Source: Mobula hypostoma (taxonomy: Eukaryota). Taken from it: DNA of 64,000 nt. Made by a program: the position numbers and the translations under genes. The stretch spans positions 7,812,001-7,876,000 of the forward strand of contig NC_086097.1 in the NCBI RefSeq assembly GCF_963921235.1, written 5' to 3'. Numbering within the stretch: the stretch's first letter is position 1; every line of letters starts with the position of its first letter. The notes below the pieces were generated by a model. The model was given only the letters and a program-made list of their open reading frames with translations, ran no database searches and had not been told where the DNA came from. Shown one piece after another: positions 44,156 through 62,400 of the stretch.

Positions 44156-44612
44156 GTTGTTGTTGTTGTTCATCCATCGTTGACATCGATGAGGACCTCG
44201 ACATCATTATGATGGTGTCGAGACTAGCGCGTGATTTGGATTTAAGTGAGGGAGAGTTGCGCAGCGTCAACCTCACTCTCTCTTCCCAATTCCCATCTGG
44301 ATCCAGTGGCAAGACAGAGTCTAGACGGCTGGAGATGGGACTAGGCACAGTGGATGACCAGGACGTCTTCTGTGTCTTGTCCTGCTCTACACGTTCCACG
44401 ACACTTGCAGAGGCCGCCTTCTTGACCGTTGGACCTTCCATTGGTCTCGTCCGCTCAAACCGCCGGAGTCTGTCTTCGCATGCTGGGATAGACAACTCCC
44501 TATCTCACCGAGGGTTTGAGACCCGTCGGCTACCCTCACCTGGTTTAGCCGGCTTGTCAAAGCCGTTGCCCAGGGTGTGGCCGCTGTCACATGCAAACAG
44601 CTACGGGGAGCC
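44156..44612 (-). mobile_element. Ribozyme-headed non-autonomous retroelement, copy 1 (5'-truncated inside the ribozyme)
   Basis: (caa)n 3' tail. 9-bp TSD ACATTTACT at 44147-44155 and 44613-44621. Near-identical to 58939-59392. Confidence 0.88.
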
Positions 44613-44959
44613 ACATTTACTATCATAGTACGTATATATCACCATATCCTACCCTGAGACACATTCTATTGTGAGCATTCACAGCAGAGCAAGGAAACAC
44701 AATAAAATCGATGAAAAACTACACACAAAGACCGGTAAACATCAAATGTATAAAAGAAAAAGAAGAAAATACAATAAAAACAAAAATAAATAAATTGTCA
44801 TTAAATGATACTGACAGCATGACTTGTAGTGTCTTTGAAATTGAGTCCATAGGTTGTGGAATCAGATCCGAGTGTTGAGATGAGTGAGTTATCCTCACTG
44901 GTTCAGGAAGTTAGGCTGGAGAAATGATAACATAACAATTTGGACTCTGTCTCTAATGA

Positions 44960-56470: not shown

Positions 56471-58938
56471 TCGTGAGGGTGAGGGACTCGGATGTACTCT
56501 GTTCTTTCAGGAAACTATTTTCCTACCTTGAATGGCCTTGATATGCTCTCTTGATTTTAACATCCACATTATCTCCCCTCTCATATCTTTTCTTTGTGGG
56601 TAGATTATTCCATAGCTTTCATAACTCCAAGGAAAGCAGTGCAATATTCTCATAATCTGAGGCCCATTTTATCTACACATTTGATGTGGCATGATGTCAT
56701 TTAAAACAGTATTTTACTCAATGTGTCCTCTCCCTCAAGTCACACCGTGATACTTGTCCTCTCTTTCTGTGATGCTGTGTGCAAGCTGTGTACGAAGCAG
56801 TTCAGAATCAGAATCAGGTTTATTATCACCAGCATGTGTAGTGAAATTTGTTAACTTAGCAGCAGCAGTTCAATGCAATGCATAATGTAGAAGAAAAAAT
56901 GTAAAAATAAATAAGTAAATCAATTACAGTATATATATATTGAATAGATCAAAAATCATGCAAAAATAGAATTAATGTATATTAAAAGTTGAGTTTGAGT
57001 GTAATCTTCAGAATTAATCAAAGTGCTGAGTATTTGGCTGGGATACAGTGATCCAGTGATTGGAGGATCTGAGGAAATGGACGAATCTGTATTAACATGC
57101 ATACTTTAATTTAGAGAATGTCTGATTACTTTTTTCAACAACGTTGAGGTTAAATGTCAATTTCTTTGCTTGGCAGTGATATGAGACAGTGGGTCATTTG
57201 TCTATTACAGGCTGTGTTATCATGCTGACAGTAATATTGCAAAATAGGTCACTCATCTGTCAATTTCATCCCTTGAGGAGGAACATGGGAGAGTAGATTG
57301 CTCATTTGTTACAGTCAATTTCATAACCCAGGTAGCGGATGGCATGTCTGTTACAGTACACATCTGCCATAATTTGACTTTAAAGAATGGCGATCCAACT
57401 GTTTAAAATTCATCAGCTCCTGCCTCCTGACGTACTGCTCACCAGTTTCATGTTAGGCAGTTTCCCTAAGTATTCAGTTACTCACTGCCTTACTTAAACA
57501 AAAATTAAGCAAACATTTAAGCAAAATAATGCTTACTTAAGCAAAAAAAAGCAAAAATTACTTACTAATTTAAACCTATCACCCCAACTGAGGCATAGGC
57601 TGCCAATAGTAGTTTGCCAGAGTCCTCTATCCTGGGCCAGTCTTTCATGTTGTCTACAGGGGTAGCATATCATCCTGTCCTGGTGTATCTTTGCTCTCTT
57701 GGACATGGAGTCTTTGGAGATTCTCCTGGCGTTTCTGTAGCACTGGGTTTTTATGAGCTGAGGTGGCTAGCTCCATGCCAAACCCTCCTGATTTCACGGC
57801 GGGGCTGGGAACATAAGACCACAGAAGTAACTTTAGGCCGTTTGGCCTGTCAAGTCTGCTCCACCATTCAATTATGGGTGATCCTTTTTTTACCTCCTCA
57901 GCCACATTCCCTGGTCTTCTCCCATAACGTTTGATGCCACATCCAATCAGGAACCTATCAAGATCTGCCTTAAATACACCAAATTACCTGGCCTCCACAG
58001 CCGCCTGTGGTAATAAATTCCACAAAATCACCACCCTCTGGCTAAAGAAATTTCTCCATATCCCTGATTTAAAAGGACATCCCTCTATTCTGAGGCTGTG
58101 CCCTCTTGTCCAAGGCTCACCCACCATGGGAACCATTATTTCCACATCTACTTTGTCTAGGCCTTTCAACATTTGAAAGACTTCAATGAGATTCCACCTC
58201 ATCCTTCTAAATTCCAGTAAGTACAGACACAGAGATATCAAACATTCCCTGTGTGATAAGTTTTTCATTCCTGGAATCATCCTTGTGAGCCTTCTCTGGA
58301 CCCTTTCCAACGCCAGCACATCATTTTTCAGATGGGGAGCCAACTACTATTCACAATACTCAAAGTGAGGCCTCTCCAGTGCCTTATAAAATCTCAGCAT
58401 CAAAAACATCCTTGCTCTTCTATTCTAGGTCTATTCTAGACCTCTTGAAATGAATGCTAGCATTGCATTTGCCTTCCTTACCCCCAACTGTACCTGCAAG
58501 TTAGCCTTTAGAATGTTCAGCATAAGGACTCCCAAATCCCTTTGCATCTCAGATATTTGGATTTTCTCCCCATTTAGAAAAAAGACTGCATATTTATTTC
58601 TTCTTCTAAAGTGCAAGGCCATATGTTTTCCAGCATTGTATTTCATTTGCCACTTTCTTGCCCATTCTCCAAAACCTAATCCTAATGAATGCGTGGCTGA
58701 GAGACTGGTGTAGGGGACAGGGCTTCAGATTCTTGGATAATTGGGATCTCTTCTGTGGGAAGTATGACCTGTTCAAAAAGGACAGGTTACACCTGAACCC
58801 GAAGGGGACCAATATCCTGGCGCGAAAGTTTAATAGAGCTGTTAGGGAGGGTTTAAACTCATTTGGCAGGGGGATGGGAACCGGAATGATAGACCAGAGG
58901 AAGGGGAAAACAGATATAAACCTAAGATAATGAGCAGT

Positions 58939-59437
58939 TGGTTGTTCGTCCATCGTTGACGTCGATGAGGACCTGGACACCATTATGATGGTGTCGAGAC
59001 TAGCGCATGATTTGGATTTAAGTGAGGGAGAGTTGCGCAGCATCAGCCTCACTCTCTCTTCTCAATTCCCATCTGGATCCAGTGGCAAGACAGAGACTAG
59101 ACGGCTGGAGATGGGACAAGGCGCAGTGGATGACCAGGACGTCTTCTGTGTCTTGTCCTGCTCTACACGTTCCATGACGCTTGCAGAGACCGCCTTCTTG
59201 ACCGTTGGACCTTCCATTGGTCTCGTCCGCTCAATCCGCCGGAGTCTGTCTTCACATGCTGGGATAGACAACTCCCTATCTCACCGAGGGTTTGAGACCC
59301 GTCGGCTACCCTCACCTGGTTTAGCCGGCTTGTCGAAGCCATTGCCCGGGGTGTGGCTGCTGTCGCATGCAAACAGCTACGGGGAGCCACAGGTGAGAAC
59401 TGAGTGCCAGGTGGGGACCAAAGGTGGACTAACCACA
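58939..59437 (-). mobile_element. Ribozyme-headed non-autonomous retroelement, copy 2 (almost full length)
   Basis: TSD TGAGCAGT at 58931-58938 and 59439-59446; inserted into the start of CR1 ORF2. Confidence 0.9.
59311..59437 (-). ncRNA. HDV-like ribozyme fold with L3 hairpin insertion
   Basis: P2 CUCACCUGU/AC(C)AGGUGAG; P3 GGC/GCC; L3 UCCCCGUA; GGGCAA; P4 UGGCUU-CGAC-AAGCCG; J4/2 GCUAA. Confidence 0.72.
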
Positions 59438-62400
59438 GTGAGCAGTAAAGATGTCAAGAAAGACAGGCAGGTGATGGGGCAAATTTGTAGCCATTGGGAT
59501 GAGTTGCAGTGCAATAAGGTTGCAGTGAAATCAAAGCGAAAAGTACCAAATACTGGCCTTAAGGTGTTATACGTAAATGCACGCAACATAAGGAATAAGG
59601 TGGATGATATTGTCGTACAGCTACAGATTGGCAGATATGATATTGTGGCCATCACTGAGATGTGGCGAAAGGATGTATGTCTCTGGGAGCTGAACGTCCA
59701 AGGATACACGGTGTATCAGAAGGATAGGAAGGTAGGCAGAGGGGGAGGCATGGCTTTATTGGTAATAAATGATATTGAATCATTAGAAAGAGGAGATATA
59801 GGATTGGAAGGTTCAGACACTTTATGGGTTGAGCTAAGAAATCGCAGGGGTAAAAGGACCCTGATGGCAGTTATTTATAGGCCTCCAAACAGCTGCAGTG
59901 ATGTGGACTACAAATTACAACAGGAAATAGAAAAGGCTTGTCAGAAGGGCAGTGTTATGATAATTGTGGGGGATTTTAACATGCGAGTGGATTGGGAAAA
60001 TCAGGTTGGCACTGGATCTCAAGAGAGAGAATTTGTCGAATGTCTGCGAGATGGCTTTTTAGAACAGCTTGTTGTTGAGCCCACTAGGGGATCAGCTGTA
60101 CTGGATTGGGTATTGTTTAATGAACTGGAGGTGATTAGAGAGATTGAGGTGAAGGAACCCTTAGGAGACAGTGATCATAACATGATTGAGTTCACTGTGA
60201 AATTTGAAAAAGGCAAGCCAAAGTCTGATGTGTTGGTATTTCAGTGGAGTAAAGGAAATTACAGTGGCATGAGAGAGGAACTGGCCAAAGTTGACTGGAA
60301 AGGGACACCGGCGGGAAAGATGGCAGAGCAGCAATGGCTGGAGTTTATGCGAGAAGTGAGGAAGGTGCAAGACAGGTATATTCCAAAAAAGAAGAAATTT
60401 TTGAATAGAAAAAGGATGCAACGGTGGTTGACAAGAGAAGTCAAAGCCAAAGTTAAAGCAAAGGAGAGGGTATACAAGGAAGCAAAAATTAGAGGGAAGA
60501 CGGAGGATTGGGAAGTTTTTAAAAGCTTACAAAAGGAAACTAAGAAGGTCATTAAGAGGGAAAAGATTAACTATGAAAGGAAGCTAGCAAATAATATCAA
60601 AGAGGATACTAAAAGCTTTTTCAAGTGAGAGTACATATAGACATAGAAAATGATGCTGGAGAAATTGTAATGGGAGATAAGGAGATGGTGGAGGAACTGA
60701 ACGAGTATTTTGCATCAGTCTTCACTGAGGAAGACATCAGCAGTATACCGGGCACTCAAGGGTGGCAGGGAAGAGAAGTGTGCGCAGTCACAATTACGAC
60801 AGAGAAAGTACTCAGGAAGCTGATTAGTCTAAAGGTAGATAAATCTCCTGGACCAGATGAAATGCACCCTTGTGTTCTGAAGAAAGTCGCTGTGGAGATT
60901 GCGGAGGCATTAGCGATGATCTTTCAAAAGTCAATAGATTCTGACATGGTTCTGGAGGACTGGAAGATTGCAAATGTCACTCTGCCATTTAAGAAGGGGG
61001 CAAGGAAGCAAAAAGGAATTTATAGACCTGTTAGCTTGACATTGGTGGTTGTGAAGTTGTTGGAGTCGATTGTCAAGGATGAGCTTACAGAGTACCTGGA
61101 GGCATATGACAAGATAGGCAGAACTCAGCATGAATTCCTTAAAGGAAAATCCTGCCTGACAAACCTATTGCAATTTTTTGAGGAAATTACAAGTAGGCTA
61201 GACAAGGGAGATGCAGTGGATGTTGTATGTGTCGATTTTCAGAAGGCCTTTGACAAGGTGCCACACATAAGGCTACTTAACAAGATAAGAGCCCATGGGA
61301 TTACGGGAAAGTTACATACGTGGATAGACCGTTGGCTGATTGGCAGGAAACAGAGAGTGGGAATAAAGGGATCCTATTCTGGTTAACTGCCGGTTACCAG
61401 TGGTTTTCCACAGGGGTCCGTGTTGGGGCTGCTTCTTTTTACATTGTACATCAACACTTTGGATTATGGAATAGATGGCTTTGTGGCTAAGTTTGCTGAC
61501 GATACGATGATAGGTGGAGGGGCCAGTAGTGCTGAGGAAACCGAGAGTCTGTAGAGAGACTTTGATAGATTGGAAGAATGGGCAAAGAAGTGGCAAACAA
61601 AATACAATGTTGGAAAGTGTATGGTTATGTACTTTCGCAGAAAAAATAAATGGGCAGACTATTATTTAAATGGGGAGAGAATTCAAAGTTCTGAGATGCA
61701 ATGGGACTTGGGGGTCCTCATACAGGATACCCTTAAGGATAACCTTCAGGTTGAGTCAGTGGTGAAGAAGGCAAATGCAATGTTGGCATTCATTTCTAGA
61801 GGAATAGAGTATAGGAGCAGGGATGTGATGTTGAGGCTCTATAAGGCGCTGGTGAGACCTCACTTGGAGTACTGTGGGCAGTTTTGATCTCCTTATTTAA
61901 GAAAGGATGTGCTGACGTTGGAGAGGGTGCAGAGAAGATTCACTAGAATGATACCGGGAATGAGAGGGTTAACACATGAGGAACGTTTGTCCTCTTTTGG
62001 ACTGTATTCCTTGGAGTTTAGAAGAATGAGGGGAAACCTCATAGAAACATTTCGAATGTTGAAAGGCATAGACAGAGTGGATGTGGCAAAGTTGTTTTCC
62101 AAGATGGGGGAGTCTAGTACGAGAGGGCATGACTTACGGATTGAAAGGCGCCCATTCAGAACAGAAATGCCAAGAAATTTTTTTAGTCAGAGGGTGGTGA
62201 ATCTATGGAATTTGTTGCCATGGGCAACAGTGGAGGCCAAGCCATTGGGTGTAGTTAAGGCAGAGATTGATGGGTATCTGAGTAGCCAGGGTATCAAAGG
62301 TTATGGTGAGAAGGCAGGGGAGTGGGACTAAATGGGTGAATGGATCATCTCATGACAAAACGGTGGAGCAGACTCGATGGGCCAAATGGCCGACTTCTGC

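What the first reader, a model, noticed from the sequence alone, without database searches (positions are those of the whole stretch)
59311..59437. HDV-like self-cleaving ribozyme with an extra hairpin inside L3, heading a ~500-nt non-coding retroelement
Seen on the minus strand, in HDV order: P2-5' CUCACCUGU (59397-59389), P3 GGC, L3 UCCCCGUA (HDV genomic L3 is UCCUCGCU; the U20/C21/C22/G25 equivalents are kept). Next comes a 20-nt insert GCUGUUUGCAUGCGACAGCA that forms its own GCUGU/ACAGC hairpin, then P3' GCC, P1' ACACCCC, and GGGCAA (identical to HDV G38-A43). It ends with P4 UGGCUU-CGAC-AAGCCG, J4/2 GCUAA (putative catalytic C at 59324) and P2' ACCAGGUGAG. The element's 5' end reads UGUGGUU, i.e. 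the last three bases of the expected P1 strand GGGGUGU, so this copy stops ~4 nt short of the predicted cleavage site. Known: R2, RTE and ingi/L1Tc elements use 5' HDV-like ribozymes to release themselves from host transcripts. Inference: this is a promoter-less SINE-like family processed by its own ribozyme. The L3 insertion is a variant that fixed-length descriptor searches would miss.
Basis: partly seen in the sequence, partly recalled or inferred. Interest (0 to 1): 0.82.

Follow-up and report, generated by a model that had tools for sequence, protein, structure and literature searches.

The report
Delta-type ribozyme heading an RTE-like retrotransposon
The flagged stretch is the core of a probable hepatitis-delta-type self-cutting RNA at the start of a jumping gene and of its very abundant shortened derivative; this use is already known, but this version carries an unusual extra hairpin in the catalytic loop.

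Summary
One claim is wrong: this copy does not stop about 4 nt short of the cleavage site. It is a 5'-truncated insertion, with a target-site duplication, that lacks the first 66-68 nt.

Full-length copies elsewhere in the genome are about 565 nt.

An older sister family (over 2,000 copies) keeps P1, P2, P3, the key L3 bases, the L3 hairpin and J4/2. It shows one compensatory swap in P4. The core differs about three times less between the families than the element body.

The "SINE" is an internally deleted RTE-like LINE, made of about 516 nt of 5' UTR plus a 47-nt 3' tail. The LINE starts the same way. The deletion junction has 2,286 hits against 3 for the LINE junction.

No Rfam model matches, catalysis is untested, and no RNA 5'-end data were available.

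Verdict: a probable HDV-like ribozyme (about 0.7) in a known role. The conserved hairpin inserted in L3 is the only possibly new feature.

The parts
58937..59436 (-). 5'-truncated copy (element positions ~67/69 to ~565) of the ~565-nt family A retroelement, an internally deleted RTE-like LINE
   Evidence: BLAST against 29 other genomic copies at 94-97% identity. Its tail is GATGGACGAACAACCAAC.
59439..59444 (-). Target-site duplication TGCTCA, 5' copy, followed by filler CT(GT) at 59438-59435
   Evidence: The same hexamer directly follows the tail.
58931..58936 (-). Target-site duplication TGCTCA, 3' copy
59402..59434 (-). 3' half only of the J1/2 ('P1.2') hairpin (element positions 69-101). 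Its 5' half and the P1 5' strand are missing in this copy.
   Evidence: Full-length copies fold positions 11-101 into one long hairpin: -45.8 kcal/mol, z = -2.4. Families A and B differ by compensatory changes in it.
59390..59397 (-). P2 5' strand CUCACCUG (positions 106-113)
   Evidence: It pairs with 59318-59311. The pair is invariant between families A and B.
59386..59388 (-). P3 5' strand GGC (positions 115-117)
   Evidence: It pairs with GCC at 59357-59355.
59378..59385 (-). L3 UCCCCGUA (positions 118-125). C119 and C120 are proposed to pair with G157 and G156 (P1.1).
   Evidence: Family B and contigs of other organisms read UCCAAGUA. Only positions 121-122 vary; U118, C119, C120 and G123 are kept.
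59358..59377 (-). 20-nt hairpin inserted between L3 and P3' (GCUGU-UUGCAUGCG-ACAGC-A; positions 126-145)
   Evidence: The A and B consensuses do not differ at positions 126-148. No paper describing such an insertion was found.
59355..59357 (-). P3 3' strand GCC (positions 146-148)
59348..59354 (-). P1 3' strand ACACCCC (positions 149-155). Its partner GGGGUGU is absent from this copy.
   Evidence: Full-length copies begin with GGGGTGT.
59342..59347 (-). GGGCAA (positions 156-161). G156 and G157 are the P1.1 partners.
   Evidence: Family B reads GGUACA. The GG is kept in the consensus but has decayed at its CpG in many copies.
59326..59341 (-). P4 hairpin UGGCUU-CGAC-AAGCCG (positions 162-177)
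   Evidence: Pair 163-176 is G-C in family A, C-G in B and U-A in some B copies. Pair 166-173 is U-A in A and U-G in B. Pair 162-177 is U-G or C-G within A.
59319..59325 (-). J4/2 GCUAAAC (positions 178-184). The putative catalytic C179 is at 59324.
   Evidence: Identical in the A and B consensuses. The catalytic role is inferred, not tested.
59311..59318 (-). P2 3' strand CAGGUGAG (positions 185-192)
44157..44615 (-). Second, more severely 5'-truncated family A copy. It starts at element position 112, inside P2, and has target-site duplication AGTAAATGT.
   Evidence: (repeat D9).

Best explanation
The flagged stretch is the 3' two-thirds of an HDV-like (nested double-pseudoknot) self-cleaving ribozyme. 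The ribozyme forms the first ~192 nt of an RTE-like LINE and of its internally deleted, non-coding ~565-nt derivative.

Proposed fold in the intact element:
- The first seven bases, GGGGUGU (P1), pair with ACACCCC at positions 149-155.
- A ~90-nt hairpin (positions 11-101) fills J1/2 and brings P1 next to P2.
- P2, P3, L3 (UCC..G..), P1.1, P4 and J4/2 with C179 follow in the canonical order.
- A conserved 20-nt hairpin is inserted between L3 and P3'.

Proposed mechanism, inferred by analogy with R2, RTE and L1Tc ribozymes. The element has no recognisable promoter of its own and is transcribed as part of host or neighbouring transcripts. The ribozyme cuts immediately 5' of G1 and releases an RNA with a defined 5' end. 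The LINE's reverse transcriptase recognises the shared 3' stem-loop and (AAC)n tail and copies the RNA into new sites.

What is shown:
- the sequence anatomy;
- the exact 5' ends of genomic copies;
- the LINE/derivative relationship;
- slower change of the core between two families.

What is inferred: catalysis, C179 as the general acid, co-transcription, and that the L3 hairpin is tolerated. The window copy itself is a dead, 5'-truncated insertion that cannot form P1.
For: 1. The predicted P1 strand sits at the true 5' terminus.
   - All 29 other copies found with the flagged stretch continue upstream to ...GGGGT(G/A)TATGGGGTGT.
   - In a sample chosen by an internal segment, 22 of 29 copies reach position 9 or lower.
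   - 34 of 44 anchored copies have a candidate target-site duplication of at least 6 nt. In 14 of those it ends at, or overlaps by one base, the first G. In 4 the element starts 2-6 nt inside. In 16 there are 1-19 extra bases.
   - An exact 7-mer complement placed there by chance is about 6e-5 per position.
2. The core is unlikely by chance: one site in the window against one site in 100 simulated windows.
3. Sister family B has 2,212 hits for its motif and 0 for the control. It keeps P1, P2, P3, the insert hairpin and J4/2 unchanged.
4. A/B consensus differences are 0 of 40 positions at 1-40 and 10 of 124 at 77-200, against 48 of 195 at 201-395. Fisher p = 5.8e-5 and 1.6e-4.
5. The changes in the core fall where the fold tolerates them:
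   - L3 positions 121-122;
   - P4 pair 163-176, G-C to C-G (compensatory);
   - P4 pair 166-173, U-A to U-G;
   - two compensatory pairs in the J1/2 hairpin.
6. On the named structure 87.3% of cells pair, against 32-49% when partners are slid by 1-3 columns.
7. The J1/2 hairpin has 3-nt and 4-nt linkers and folds at -45.8 kcal/mol, z = -2.4. This matches the 'P1.2' peripheral domain shown to activate large HDV-like ribozymes (PMC4908430, first part of the text read). P1-to-P1' spacings of 23 to over 700 nt are known in R2 (PMC3774820, section 18).
8. The LINE partner.
   - L094/L092 holds element positions 48-516 at 96.6% identity, followed by an endonuclease domain (Exo_endo_phos, E = 2.7e-4; its 21.2 bits are below Pfam's 24.5-bit cut-off).
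   - Reverse transcriptase follows (RVT_1, E = 5.4e-15), then a stop and a ~40-nt 3' UTR equal to element positions 519-563.
   - Two other copies with the LINE junction begin GGGGTGTATGGGG and (G)GTGTATGGGG.
9. Ribozymes of RTE elements that cleave at the element's 5' end are in print (passages in PMC3774820, and PMC6765202).
Against: - No Rfam family matches at gathering score in the window. None matches at E up to 10 on the window copy or on a full-length copy.
- P1, P2, P3 and P1.1 never vary informatively, so covariation supports only P4 and the J1/2 hairpin. The shuffle control in that call is inflated by the relatedness of the copies.
- The cleavage-site pair would be G1-C155, not the G-U wobble of HDV and CPEB3. 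That comparison is from recall.
- I found no report that a hairpin inserted in L3 is tolerated, so it could inactivate the fold.
- About a third of copies read GGGGTAT, which gives an A-C mismatch at the sixth P1 pair.
- RNAalifold's nested consensus prefers a competing helix, CAGGGAGGG with CUCUCACCUG, over P2.
- No RNA 5'-end data exist. All 24 runs found are kept as contigs, and the two 'RNA?' runs are only guesses.
- The descriptor was written after seeing the sequence.
- Slower change of the core could serve another RNA function.
Confidence: 0.7

Rival explanations
1. A structured 5' UTR domain that descends from, or only resembles, an HDV-like ribozyme but no longer cleaves. On this reading the L3 hairpin and the G1-C pair would have inactivated it. 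The precise 5' end at G1 would be a transcription start from an internal promoter, and the conserved fold would serve another purpose such as reverse-transcriptase or ribosome recruitment or RNA stability.
For: - No Rfam HDV-type model matches.
- The L3 insertion has no precedent in the papers I found.
- There is no covariation in P1, P2 or P3.
- In L1Tc the same 77 nt act as both internal promoter and ribozyme (PMC3383444, abstract in the listing). A promoter at this position is therefore plausible.
Against: - A transcription start does not explain why the terminal 7 nt are the exact complement of the 7 nt placed just before GG, in a core with P2, P3, L3, P4 and J4/2 in HDV order.
- No tRNA-type head and no 5S, 7SL or snRNA-type match was found.
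- The key L3 bases, the GG and the J4/2 C stay fixed between two families while neighbouring bases change.
Confidence: 0.2
2. The ribozyme is real but cuts 5' of the second GGGGUGU (position 10), the better-conserved repeat. The first GGGGURUAU unit would then be re-created or added during reverse transcription by slippage on the repeated 5' end.
For: - The second unit is nearly invariant, while the first is ragged: TTGGTGT, GGGATGT, GGGGTAT.
- Some copies carry an extra partial unit (L021, L036) and two start at about position 9-10 (L032, L041).
- R2 elements with a duplicated P1 can cleave at either copy (PMC3774820, section 18).
Against: - Most full-length copies keep both units, with the target-site duplication abutting the first G.
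- GUGU of the second unit pairs in the base of the J1/2 hairpin. There U16-G96 in family A becomes U-A in B, and the A18-U94 pair is replaced by C-G.
- Only 2 of 44 copies start near position 10.
Confidence: 0.08
3. Chance resemblance: an ordinary GC-rich repeat that happens to contain HDV-like words.
For: There is no database match, and the descriptor was built post hoc.
Against: - One chance site per 100 simulated windows.
- The predicted P1 strand found at the exact element terminus.
- Three-fold slower change of the core than of the body.
- Compensatory changes in P4 and the J1/2 hairpin.
- The setting at the 5' end of an RTE-like LINE, where such ribozymes are known.
Confidence: 0.02

Closest known systems
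HDV-like ribozymes at the 5' ends of RTE-clade (and R2, R4/Dong, baggins, L1Tc) non-LTR retrotransposons
   Same: - It sits at the very 5' end of a non-LTR element.
- P1 begins at the element's first base, so cleavage would define the RNA's 5' end.
- No recognisable promoter of its own was found.
- Helices and joining strands come in the same order.
Sources: PMC3774820 passages and PMC6765202 passages.
   Different: - A 20-nt hairpin is inserted between L3 and P3'.
- The cleavage-site pair is G-C, not G-U.
- No Rfam model detects it.
- The RTE assignment of this LINE rests on its architecture: ~3.46 kb, EN then RT with no separate upstream ORF seen in this degraded copy, a ~40-nt 3' UTR and a short-repeat tail. 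The clade hallmarks are recalled, and no phylogeny was run.
Large HDV-like ribozymes with a structured J1/2 ('P1.2') domain, e.g. drz-Agam-2-1
   Same: A long stable hairpin joined by short linkers (3 and 4 nt here) sits between P1 and P2. That architecture was shown to speed cleavage by 'pinching' P1 and P2 together (PMC4908430, first part of the text read).
   Different: P2 is 8 bp here, against 12 bp in the Agam-2 ribozymes. The base of the hairpin reuses a second copy of the P1 sequence. The activating effect was not tested here.
Internally deleted non-autonomous derivatives that keep the parent's 5' ribozyme: R2 SIDEs and NARTc of L1Tc
   Same: The short element is the parent LINE's 5' end with its ribozyme plus the 3' end needed for reverse transcription. 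It far outnumbers the parent: 2,286 hits for the deletion junction against 3 for the LINE junction. Sources: abstracts of PMC3414825 and PMC3383444 in the listing.
   Different: - The parent is RTE-like and inserts at dispersed sites with variable target-site duplications, not in rDNA.
- The host genome is 3.5 Gb and its taxon is not named.
- The deletion junction lies in the loop of an 11-bp hairpin formed by the 5' UTR end and the 3' UTR start.
Genomic HDV and CPEB3 ribozymes
   Same: The nested double-pseudoknot order is the same. L3 starts UCC and has a G at position 6, GG follows P1', and a C in J4/2 is followed by purine-rich bases.
   Different: J1/2 is ~98 nt rather than a few. L3 carries the hairpin. 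The first pair is G-C. The biological setting is a retroelement, not a viroid-like genome or an intron.

Membership tests
HDV-like self-cleaving ribozymes | Nested double pseudoknot: P1 (~7 bp) starting at the cleavage site, then P2, P3, P1.1 and P4 in the canonical order | tested here: met
   All helices can be drawn on full-length copies: P1 7 bp, P2 8 bp, P3 3 bp, P1.1 2 bp, P4 6 bp. 87.3% of cells pair across 28 sequences, against 32-49% when partners are slid. This is complementarity only, not probing.
HDV-like self-cleaving ribozymes | Covariation supporting the helices | tested here: inconclusive
   P4 has 3 pairs with changes on both sides, and the J1/2 hairpin has 2 compensatory pairs between families A and B. 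P1, P2, P3 and P1.1 show no family-level compensatory change; their few both-sided changes are single decayed copies.
HDV-like self-cleaving ribozymes | Conserved active-site bases: the catalytic C in J4/2, and the U...G pair and CC in L3 | tested here: met
   C179, U118, C119, C120 and G123 are identical in the family A and B consensuses, while 121-122 differ. PMC3774820 (sections 12 and 16) names the L3 G and U and the catalytic C as conserved.
HDV-like self-cleaving ribozymes | Compact L3 hairpin loop (about 7-8 nt) closed by a 3-bp P3 | tested here: not met
   L3 is 8 nt plus a 20-nt inserted hairpin before P3'. No paper describing such an insertion turned up. This is the main structural departure.
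HDV-like self-cleaving ribozymes | G-U wobble at the cleavage-site pair (a feature of HDV and CPEB3; from recall) | tested here: not met
   G1 would pair with C155 in both families.
HDV-like self-cleaving ribozymes | Match to a curated covariance model | tested here: not met
   No hit at gathering score, and none at E up to 10 on the truncated copy or a full-length copy. The long J1/2 and the L3 insert would be expected to break such models.
HDV-like self-cleaving ribozymes | Site-specific Mg2+-dependent self-cleavage 5' of G1 | not testable with these tools
   There is only indirect support: genomic copies start at G1. No raw RNA reads were available.
RTE-clade LINE with an internally deleted derivative | Parent element encoding an AP-type endonuclease and a reverse transcriptase, sharing both ends with the short element | tested here: met
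   L094/L092 holds element positions 48-516 at 96.6%. Then come Exo_endo_phos (E = 2.7e-4; 21.2 bits, below Pfam's 24.5-bit cut-off), RVT_1 (E = 5.4e-15) and a tail equal to positions 519-563. The ORF in this copy is broken into several frames.
RTE-clade LINE with an internally deleted derivative | RTE clade membership by reverse-transcriptase phylogeny | not tested
   Only the architecture points to RTE: ~3.46 kb, a ~40-nt 3' UTR and an (AAC)n-type tail. The clade hallmarks are recalled.
Classical Pol III SINE (tRNA-, 5S- or 7SL-derived head) | A head related to a Pol III gene with internal A and B boxes | tested here: not met
   ARAGORN finds no tRNA. cmscan at E up to 10 finds no tRNA, 5S, 7SL or snRNA on a full-length copy.

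The most novel reading that the evidence does not exclude
The hairpin inserted between L3 and P3' may be a functional extra domain that defines a new structural subclass of HDV-like ribozymes, invisible to descriptors and Rfam models. It is identical in two families that differ by about 25% elsewhere. Its loop UUGCAUGCG holds the palindrome GCAUGC and a UGCAUG word. It could regulate cleavage, for example through loop-loop dimerisation or by binding a host protein next to the active site.
Probability: 0.12. Interest if true: 0.7.

Novelty: new variant of a known kind. Interest (0 to 1): 0.45.

Why it matters
If the RNA cleaves, the accepted architecture of delta-type ribozymes must allow a helix inserted in the catalytic L3 loop. 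Fixed-length descriptor and covariance searches would then have been missing a class of them, here present in thousands of copies in a large animal genome. It would also be a clean case of a ribozyme-headed RTE-like LINE outnumbered several hundred-fold by its own deletion derivative. If the RNA does not cleave, this is an ordinary retroelement 5' UTR.

Tried and rejected
- **Rfam.** Gathering threshold on the window and E up to 10 on 58600-59800 and on a full-length copy. Only weak snoRNA/miRNA noise appeared.
- **RNA 5' ends.** All 24 runs found are kept as contigs. Laying 4 of the 24 gave variants and loose ends but no molecule starts, and the 'RNA?' labels are guesses. Neither expression nor cleavage can be claimed.
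- **Metagenome contigs.** Two exact-pattern scans gave 0 hits.
- **Earlier notes of this scan.** Nothing for this genome or sequence. The word search returned unrelated elements in other genomes.
- **A third family continuing differently after position ~380.** A negative-design pattern gave only 75 hits, consistent with mutated A/B copies. No loci could be cut.
- **LINE partner among LINEs in the window.** The tail motif occurs only in the two family A copies. The CR1/L2-like LINE around the insertion is unrelated to the element.
- **Antisense coding.** A 187-194-codon open frame runs through the whole element. It has no Pfam family, A/B differences split 28/23/23 by codon position, and 1.7% of shuffles have a frame as long. 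Rejected as coding.
- **Family B copies with a conserved ~215-nt upstream leader.** Seen in 7 of 30 loci and considered as a precursor context for the ribozyme. More simply, this is one B copy, starting at GTGTAT, embedded in another repeat that was later amplified, since the downstream flanks also match.
- **Not attempted.** A covariance model of my own and a search of the genome with it, because the thousands of A and B copies would fill the 40 scored hits. RT phylogeny and a homologue search for the LINE protein. Dfam and Repbase are not available here.

Full report
**Observation**

- P2 5' strand, 59397-59390
- P3 GGC, 59388-59386
- L3 UCCCCGUA, 59385-59378
- a 20-nt insert with a GCUGU/ACAGC stem, 59377-59358
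- P3' GCC, 59357-59355
- ACACCCC, 59354-59348
- GGGCAA, 59347-59342
- the P4 hairpin, 59341-59326
- GCUAA with its C at 59324
- P2', 59318-59311

I wrote a descriptor for this core without P1, after seeing the sequence, so it is post hoc. It finds one site in the window. It finds one site in total across 100 first-order Markov simulations of the window. No Rfam family matches. That holds at gathering score, at E up to 10 on the window copy, and on a full-length copy.

**What the copy is**

The window lies in a 3.48-Gb assembly in which the stretch is highly repeated; 2,185 first-look candidates were found and 40 were scored.

All 29 other loci retrieved are 94-97% identical over about 500 nt. 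All continue a further ~68 nt upstream, where the window copy diverges. The window copy is therefore a 5'-truncated insertion:
- It starts at element position 67/69 (59436/59434).
- It ends in GATGGACGAACAACCAAC at 58937.
- It has the target-site duplication TGCTCA on both sides, plus 2-4 filler bases.

A second copy in the window (44615-44157, minus strand) starts at position 112.

**The prediction that held**

Full-length copies begin GGGGT(G/A)TAT-GGGGTGT-CAGGG.... The predicted P1 strand GGGGUGU is thus present at the very 5' end, in two tandem units.

In a second sample, chosen with an internal segment so that it is blind to the 5' end:
- 22 of 29 copies reach position 9 or lower;
- one starts at position 30;
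- two start at 69-71;
- four start at 212-233.

Of 44 copies carrying the anchor, 34 have a candidate target-site duplication of at least 6 nt:
- in 14 it ends at, or overlaps by one base, the first G;
- in 4 the element starts 2-6 nt inside;
- in 16 there are 1-19 extra bases.

Some of the 16 lie in low-complexity flanks. Some carry an extra partial GGGGTGTAT unit (L021, L036).

**Fold of the intact element**

Numbering starts at the first G.

| Element | Positions |
|---|---|
| P1 | 1-7 with 149-155 |
| J1/2 | 8-105, with one long hairpin at 11-101 and linkers of 3 and 4 nt |
| P2 | 106-113 with 185-192 |
| P3 | 115-117 with 146-148 |
| L3 | 118-125 |
| Inserted hairpin | 126-145 |
| P1.1 | C119, C120 with G157, G156 |
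| P4 | 162-177 |
| J4/2 | 178-184, with C179 |

- The J1/2 hairpin folds at -45.8 kcal/mol, z = -2.4.
- The second GGGGUGU forms the base of that hairpin.
- A structured J1/2 ("P1.2") domain with short linkers is a described activating feature of large HDV-like ribozymes (PMC4908430, first part of the text read).
- P1-to-P1' distances of 23 to over 700 nt occur in R2 (PMC3774820, section 18).

**A sister family and what it shows**

Laying contigs of four coded runs showed common variants at L3 positions 121-122 (CC to AA) and at 173 (A to G). It also showed loose ends pointing to a related family.

A 20-nt motif from one loose end hits the own genome 2,212 times, with 0 control hits. This family B is old; its copies are about 70-85% alike. 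It begins with the same GGGGTGTATGGGGTGTC.

I built consensuses from 22 family A copies and 30 family B copies. The number of positions that differ, by region:

| Positions | Differences |
|---|---|
| 1-40 | 0 of 40 |
| 41-76 | 16 of 36 |
| 77-200 | 10 of 124 |
| 201-395 | 48 of 195 |

The core (77-200) against the body (201-395) gives Fisher p = 1.6e-4. Positions 1-40 against the body give p = 5.8e-5.

The ten differences in 77-200 are:
- two in the hairpin base: U16-G96 becomes U-A, and the A18-U94 pair is replaced by C-G;
- L3 positions 121-122;
- positions 158-160, where GGGCAA becomes GGUACA and the GG is kept;
- three in P4: pair 163-176 changes from G-C to C-G, which is compensatory, and pair 166-173 changes from U-A to U-G.

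The apical part of the hairpin has two further compensatory pairs. P1, P2, P3, the inserted hairpin and J4/2 do not differ at all.

On the named structure, 87.3% of cells pair, against 32-49% for slid partners. Real covariation is confined to P4 and the hairpin. The invariant helices are neither supported nor contradicted. Within family B, the apparent double changes in P4 are CpG transitions at about chance frequency (my count), so I do not count them as evidence.

**It is a deleted LINE, not an independent SINE**

A negative-design pattern for the 3' hairpin turned up one locus that shares only the last 45 nt. I extended it upstream. The region shows, in order:
1. element positions 48-516 at 96.6% identity;
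2. a LINE-specific sequence;
3. an endonuclease domain (Exo_endo_phos, E = 2.7e-4; its 21.2 bits are below Pfam's 24.5-bit cut-off);
4. reverse transcriptase (RVT_1, E = 5.4e-15);
5. a stop codon;
6. a ~40-nt 3' UTR equal to element positions 519-563.

The whole spans about 3.46 kb. That architecture is RTE-like. The clade hallmarks are from recall, and no phylogeny was run.

The LINE-specific junction occurs 3 times in the genome, and the deletion junction 2,286 times, both at up to 2 mismatches. The two other LINE-junction copies begin GGGGTGTATGGGG and, inside a (TG)n run, (G)GTGTATGGGG, at the expected distance.

The ~565-nt family is therefore the LINE's 5' UTR joined to its 3' tail. This is the same kind of derivative as R2 SIDEs or NARTc (abstracts in the listing).

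**Mechanism**

The following is inferred by analogy. RTE, R4, L1Tc and some R2 ribozymes cleave at the element's 5' end (PMC3774820 passage). RTE and baggins elements are said to lack their own promoters (PMC6765202 passage). On that model, read-through transcripts are cut 5' of G1, and the released RNA is copied by the LINE's reverse transcriptase through the shared 3' stem-loop and (AAC)n tail.

The duplicated P1 unit resembles the duplicated-P1 situation discussed for R2. The copy ends favour cleavage at the first unit.

**Points against**
- No Rfam model matches.
- The first pair would be G-C instead of G-U.
- The L3 insertion has no precedent that I could find.
- About a third of copies have an A-C mismatch at the sixth P1 pair.
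- RNAalifold prefers a helix that competes with P2.
- There is no RNA 5'-end evidence.

**Verdict**

This is a probable HDV-like ribozyme (about 0.7) in a well-known role. It is a new variant of a known kind only because of the conserved L3 hairpin, and the window copy itself is a dead fragment. Supplements of the cited papers were not opened. Ruminski et al. 2011, the primary paper on RTE ribozymes, was not in the searchable library and is known to me only through citations in the passages read.

Noticed in passing
window 58934-60628 (+) and 58610-58930 (+): The family A copy is inserted antisense into a different, CR1/L2-like LINE. The insertion lies between a GDSL-like ORF1 end (Lipase_GDSL_2, E = 6.8e-4, below Pfam's cut-off) and the endonuclease domain (Exo_endo_phos_2, E = 1.7e-9). 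The plus-strand frame stays open straight through the inserted element, giving a 564-codon stop-free frame.
   Followed up: partly
family A element, antisense strand (e.g. L053 1138-1824, minus strand): A stop-free frame of 187-194 codons spans the whole element in the consensus and in 13 of 22 copies. It has no Pfam family. A/B differences split 28/23/23 by codon position, and 1.7% of shuffles have a frame as long. This is probably composition or chance.
   Followed up: yes
window ~58985-59010 (minus strand); L094 ~2568-2583 with L092 ~1487-1500: The deletion junction of the short element lies in the 4-nt loop of a perfect 11-bp hairpin (CTCGACACCAT / ATGGTGTCGAG). In the LINE, the 5' UTR end and the 3' UTR start share 8 complementary bases across the whole ORF. 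A long-range helix may have guided the deletion.
   Followed up: no
window 59434-59436; L060 and L047: Three of 30 copies examined (the 29 plus the window copy) are truncated within 5 nt of each other, at positions 67-71. That is the 3' side of the apical stem of the J1/2 hairpin, possibly a reverse-transcription stop.
   Followed up: no
window 59363-59371 (loop of the inserted hairpin): The loop UUGCAUGCG contains the palindrome GCAUGC and the word UGCAUG. From recall, UGCAUG is the Rbfox-type binding word. The loop is identical in the A and B consensuses.
   Followed up: no
L021, L036, L007, L008 5' junctions: The number of GGGGTGTAT units at the 5' end varies. Extra partial units (GTGTAT, GGTGTAT, TGT) occur between the target-site duplication and the first full unit. 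This suggests slippage on the repeated 5' end during integration.
   Followed up: partly
L067, L068, L071, L073, L074, L080, L085 (about 215 nt upstream of the family B start): Seven of 30 family B loci share a conserved AT-rich leader upstream. At least two (L068, L071) also share their downstream flank. This looks like one B copy embedded in another repeat that was amplified afterwards.
   Followed up: partly
runs X1-X24: Words of the element occur in runs of at least 11 coded organism labels and in one freshwater metatranscriptome. Family A is young here, with copies 94-97% alike. Whether this reflects close relatives or horizontal spread, which is known for RTE/BovB from recall, was not examined.
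   Followed up: no
L052 1129-1228 and 1794-1893: The flanks of this copy are themselves a very high-copy repeat, with contig depth up to about 115,000. Contigs that join across the insertion show the empty site in other copies (table 5).
   Followed up: no
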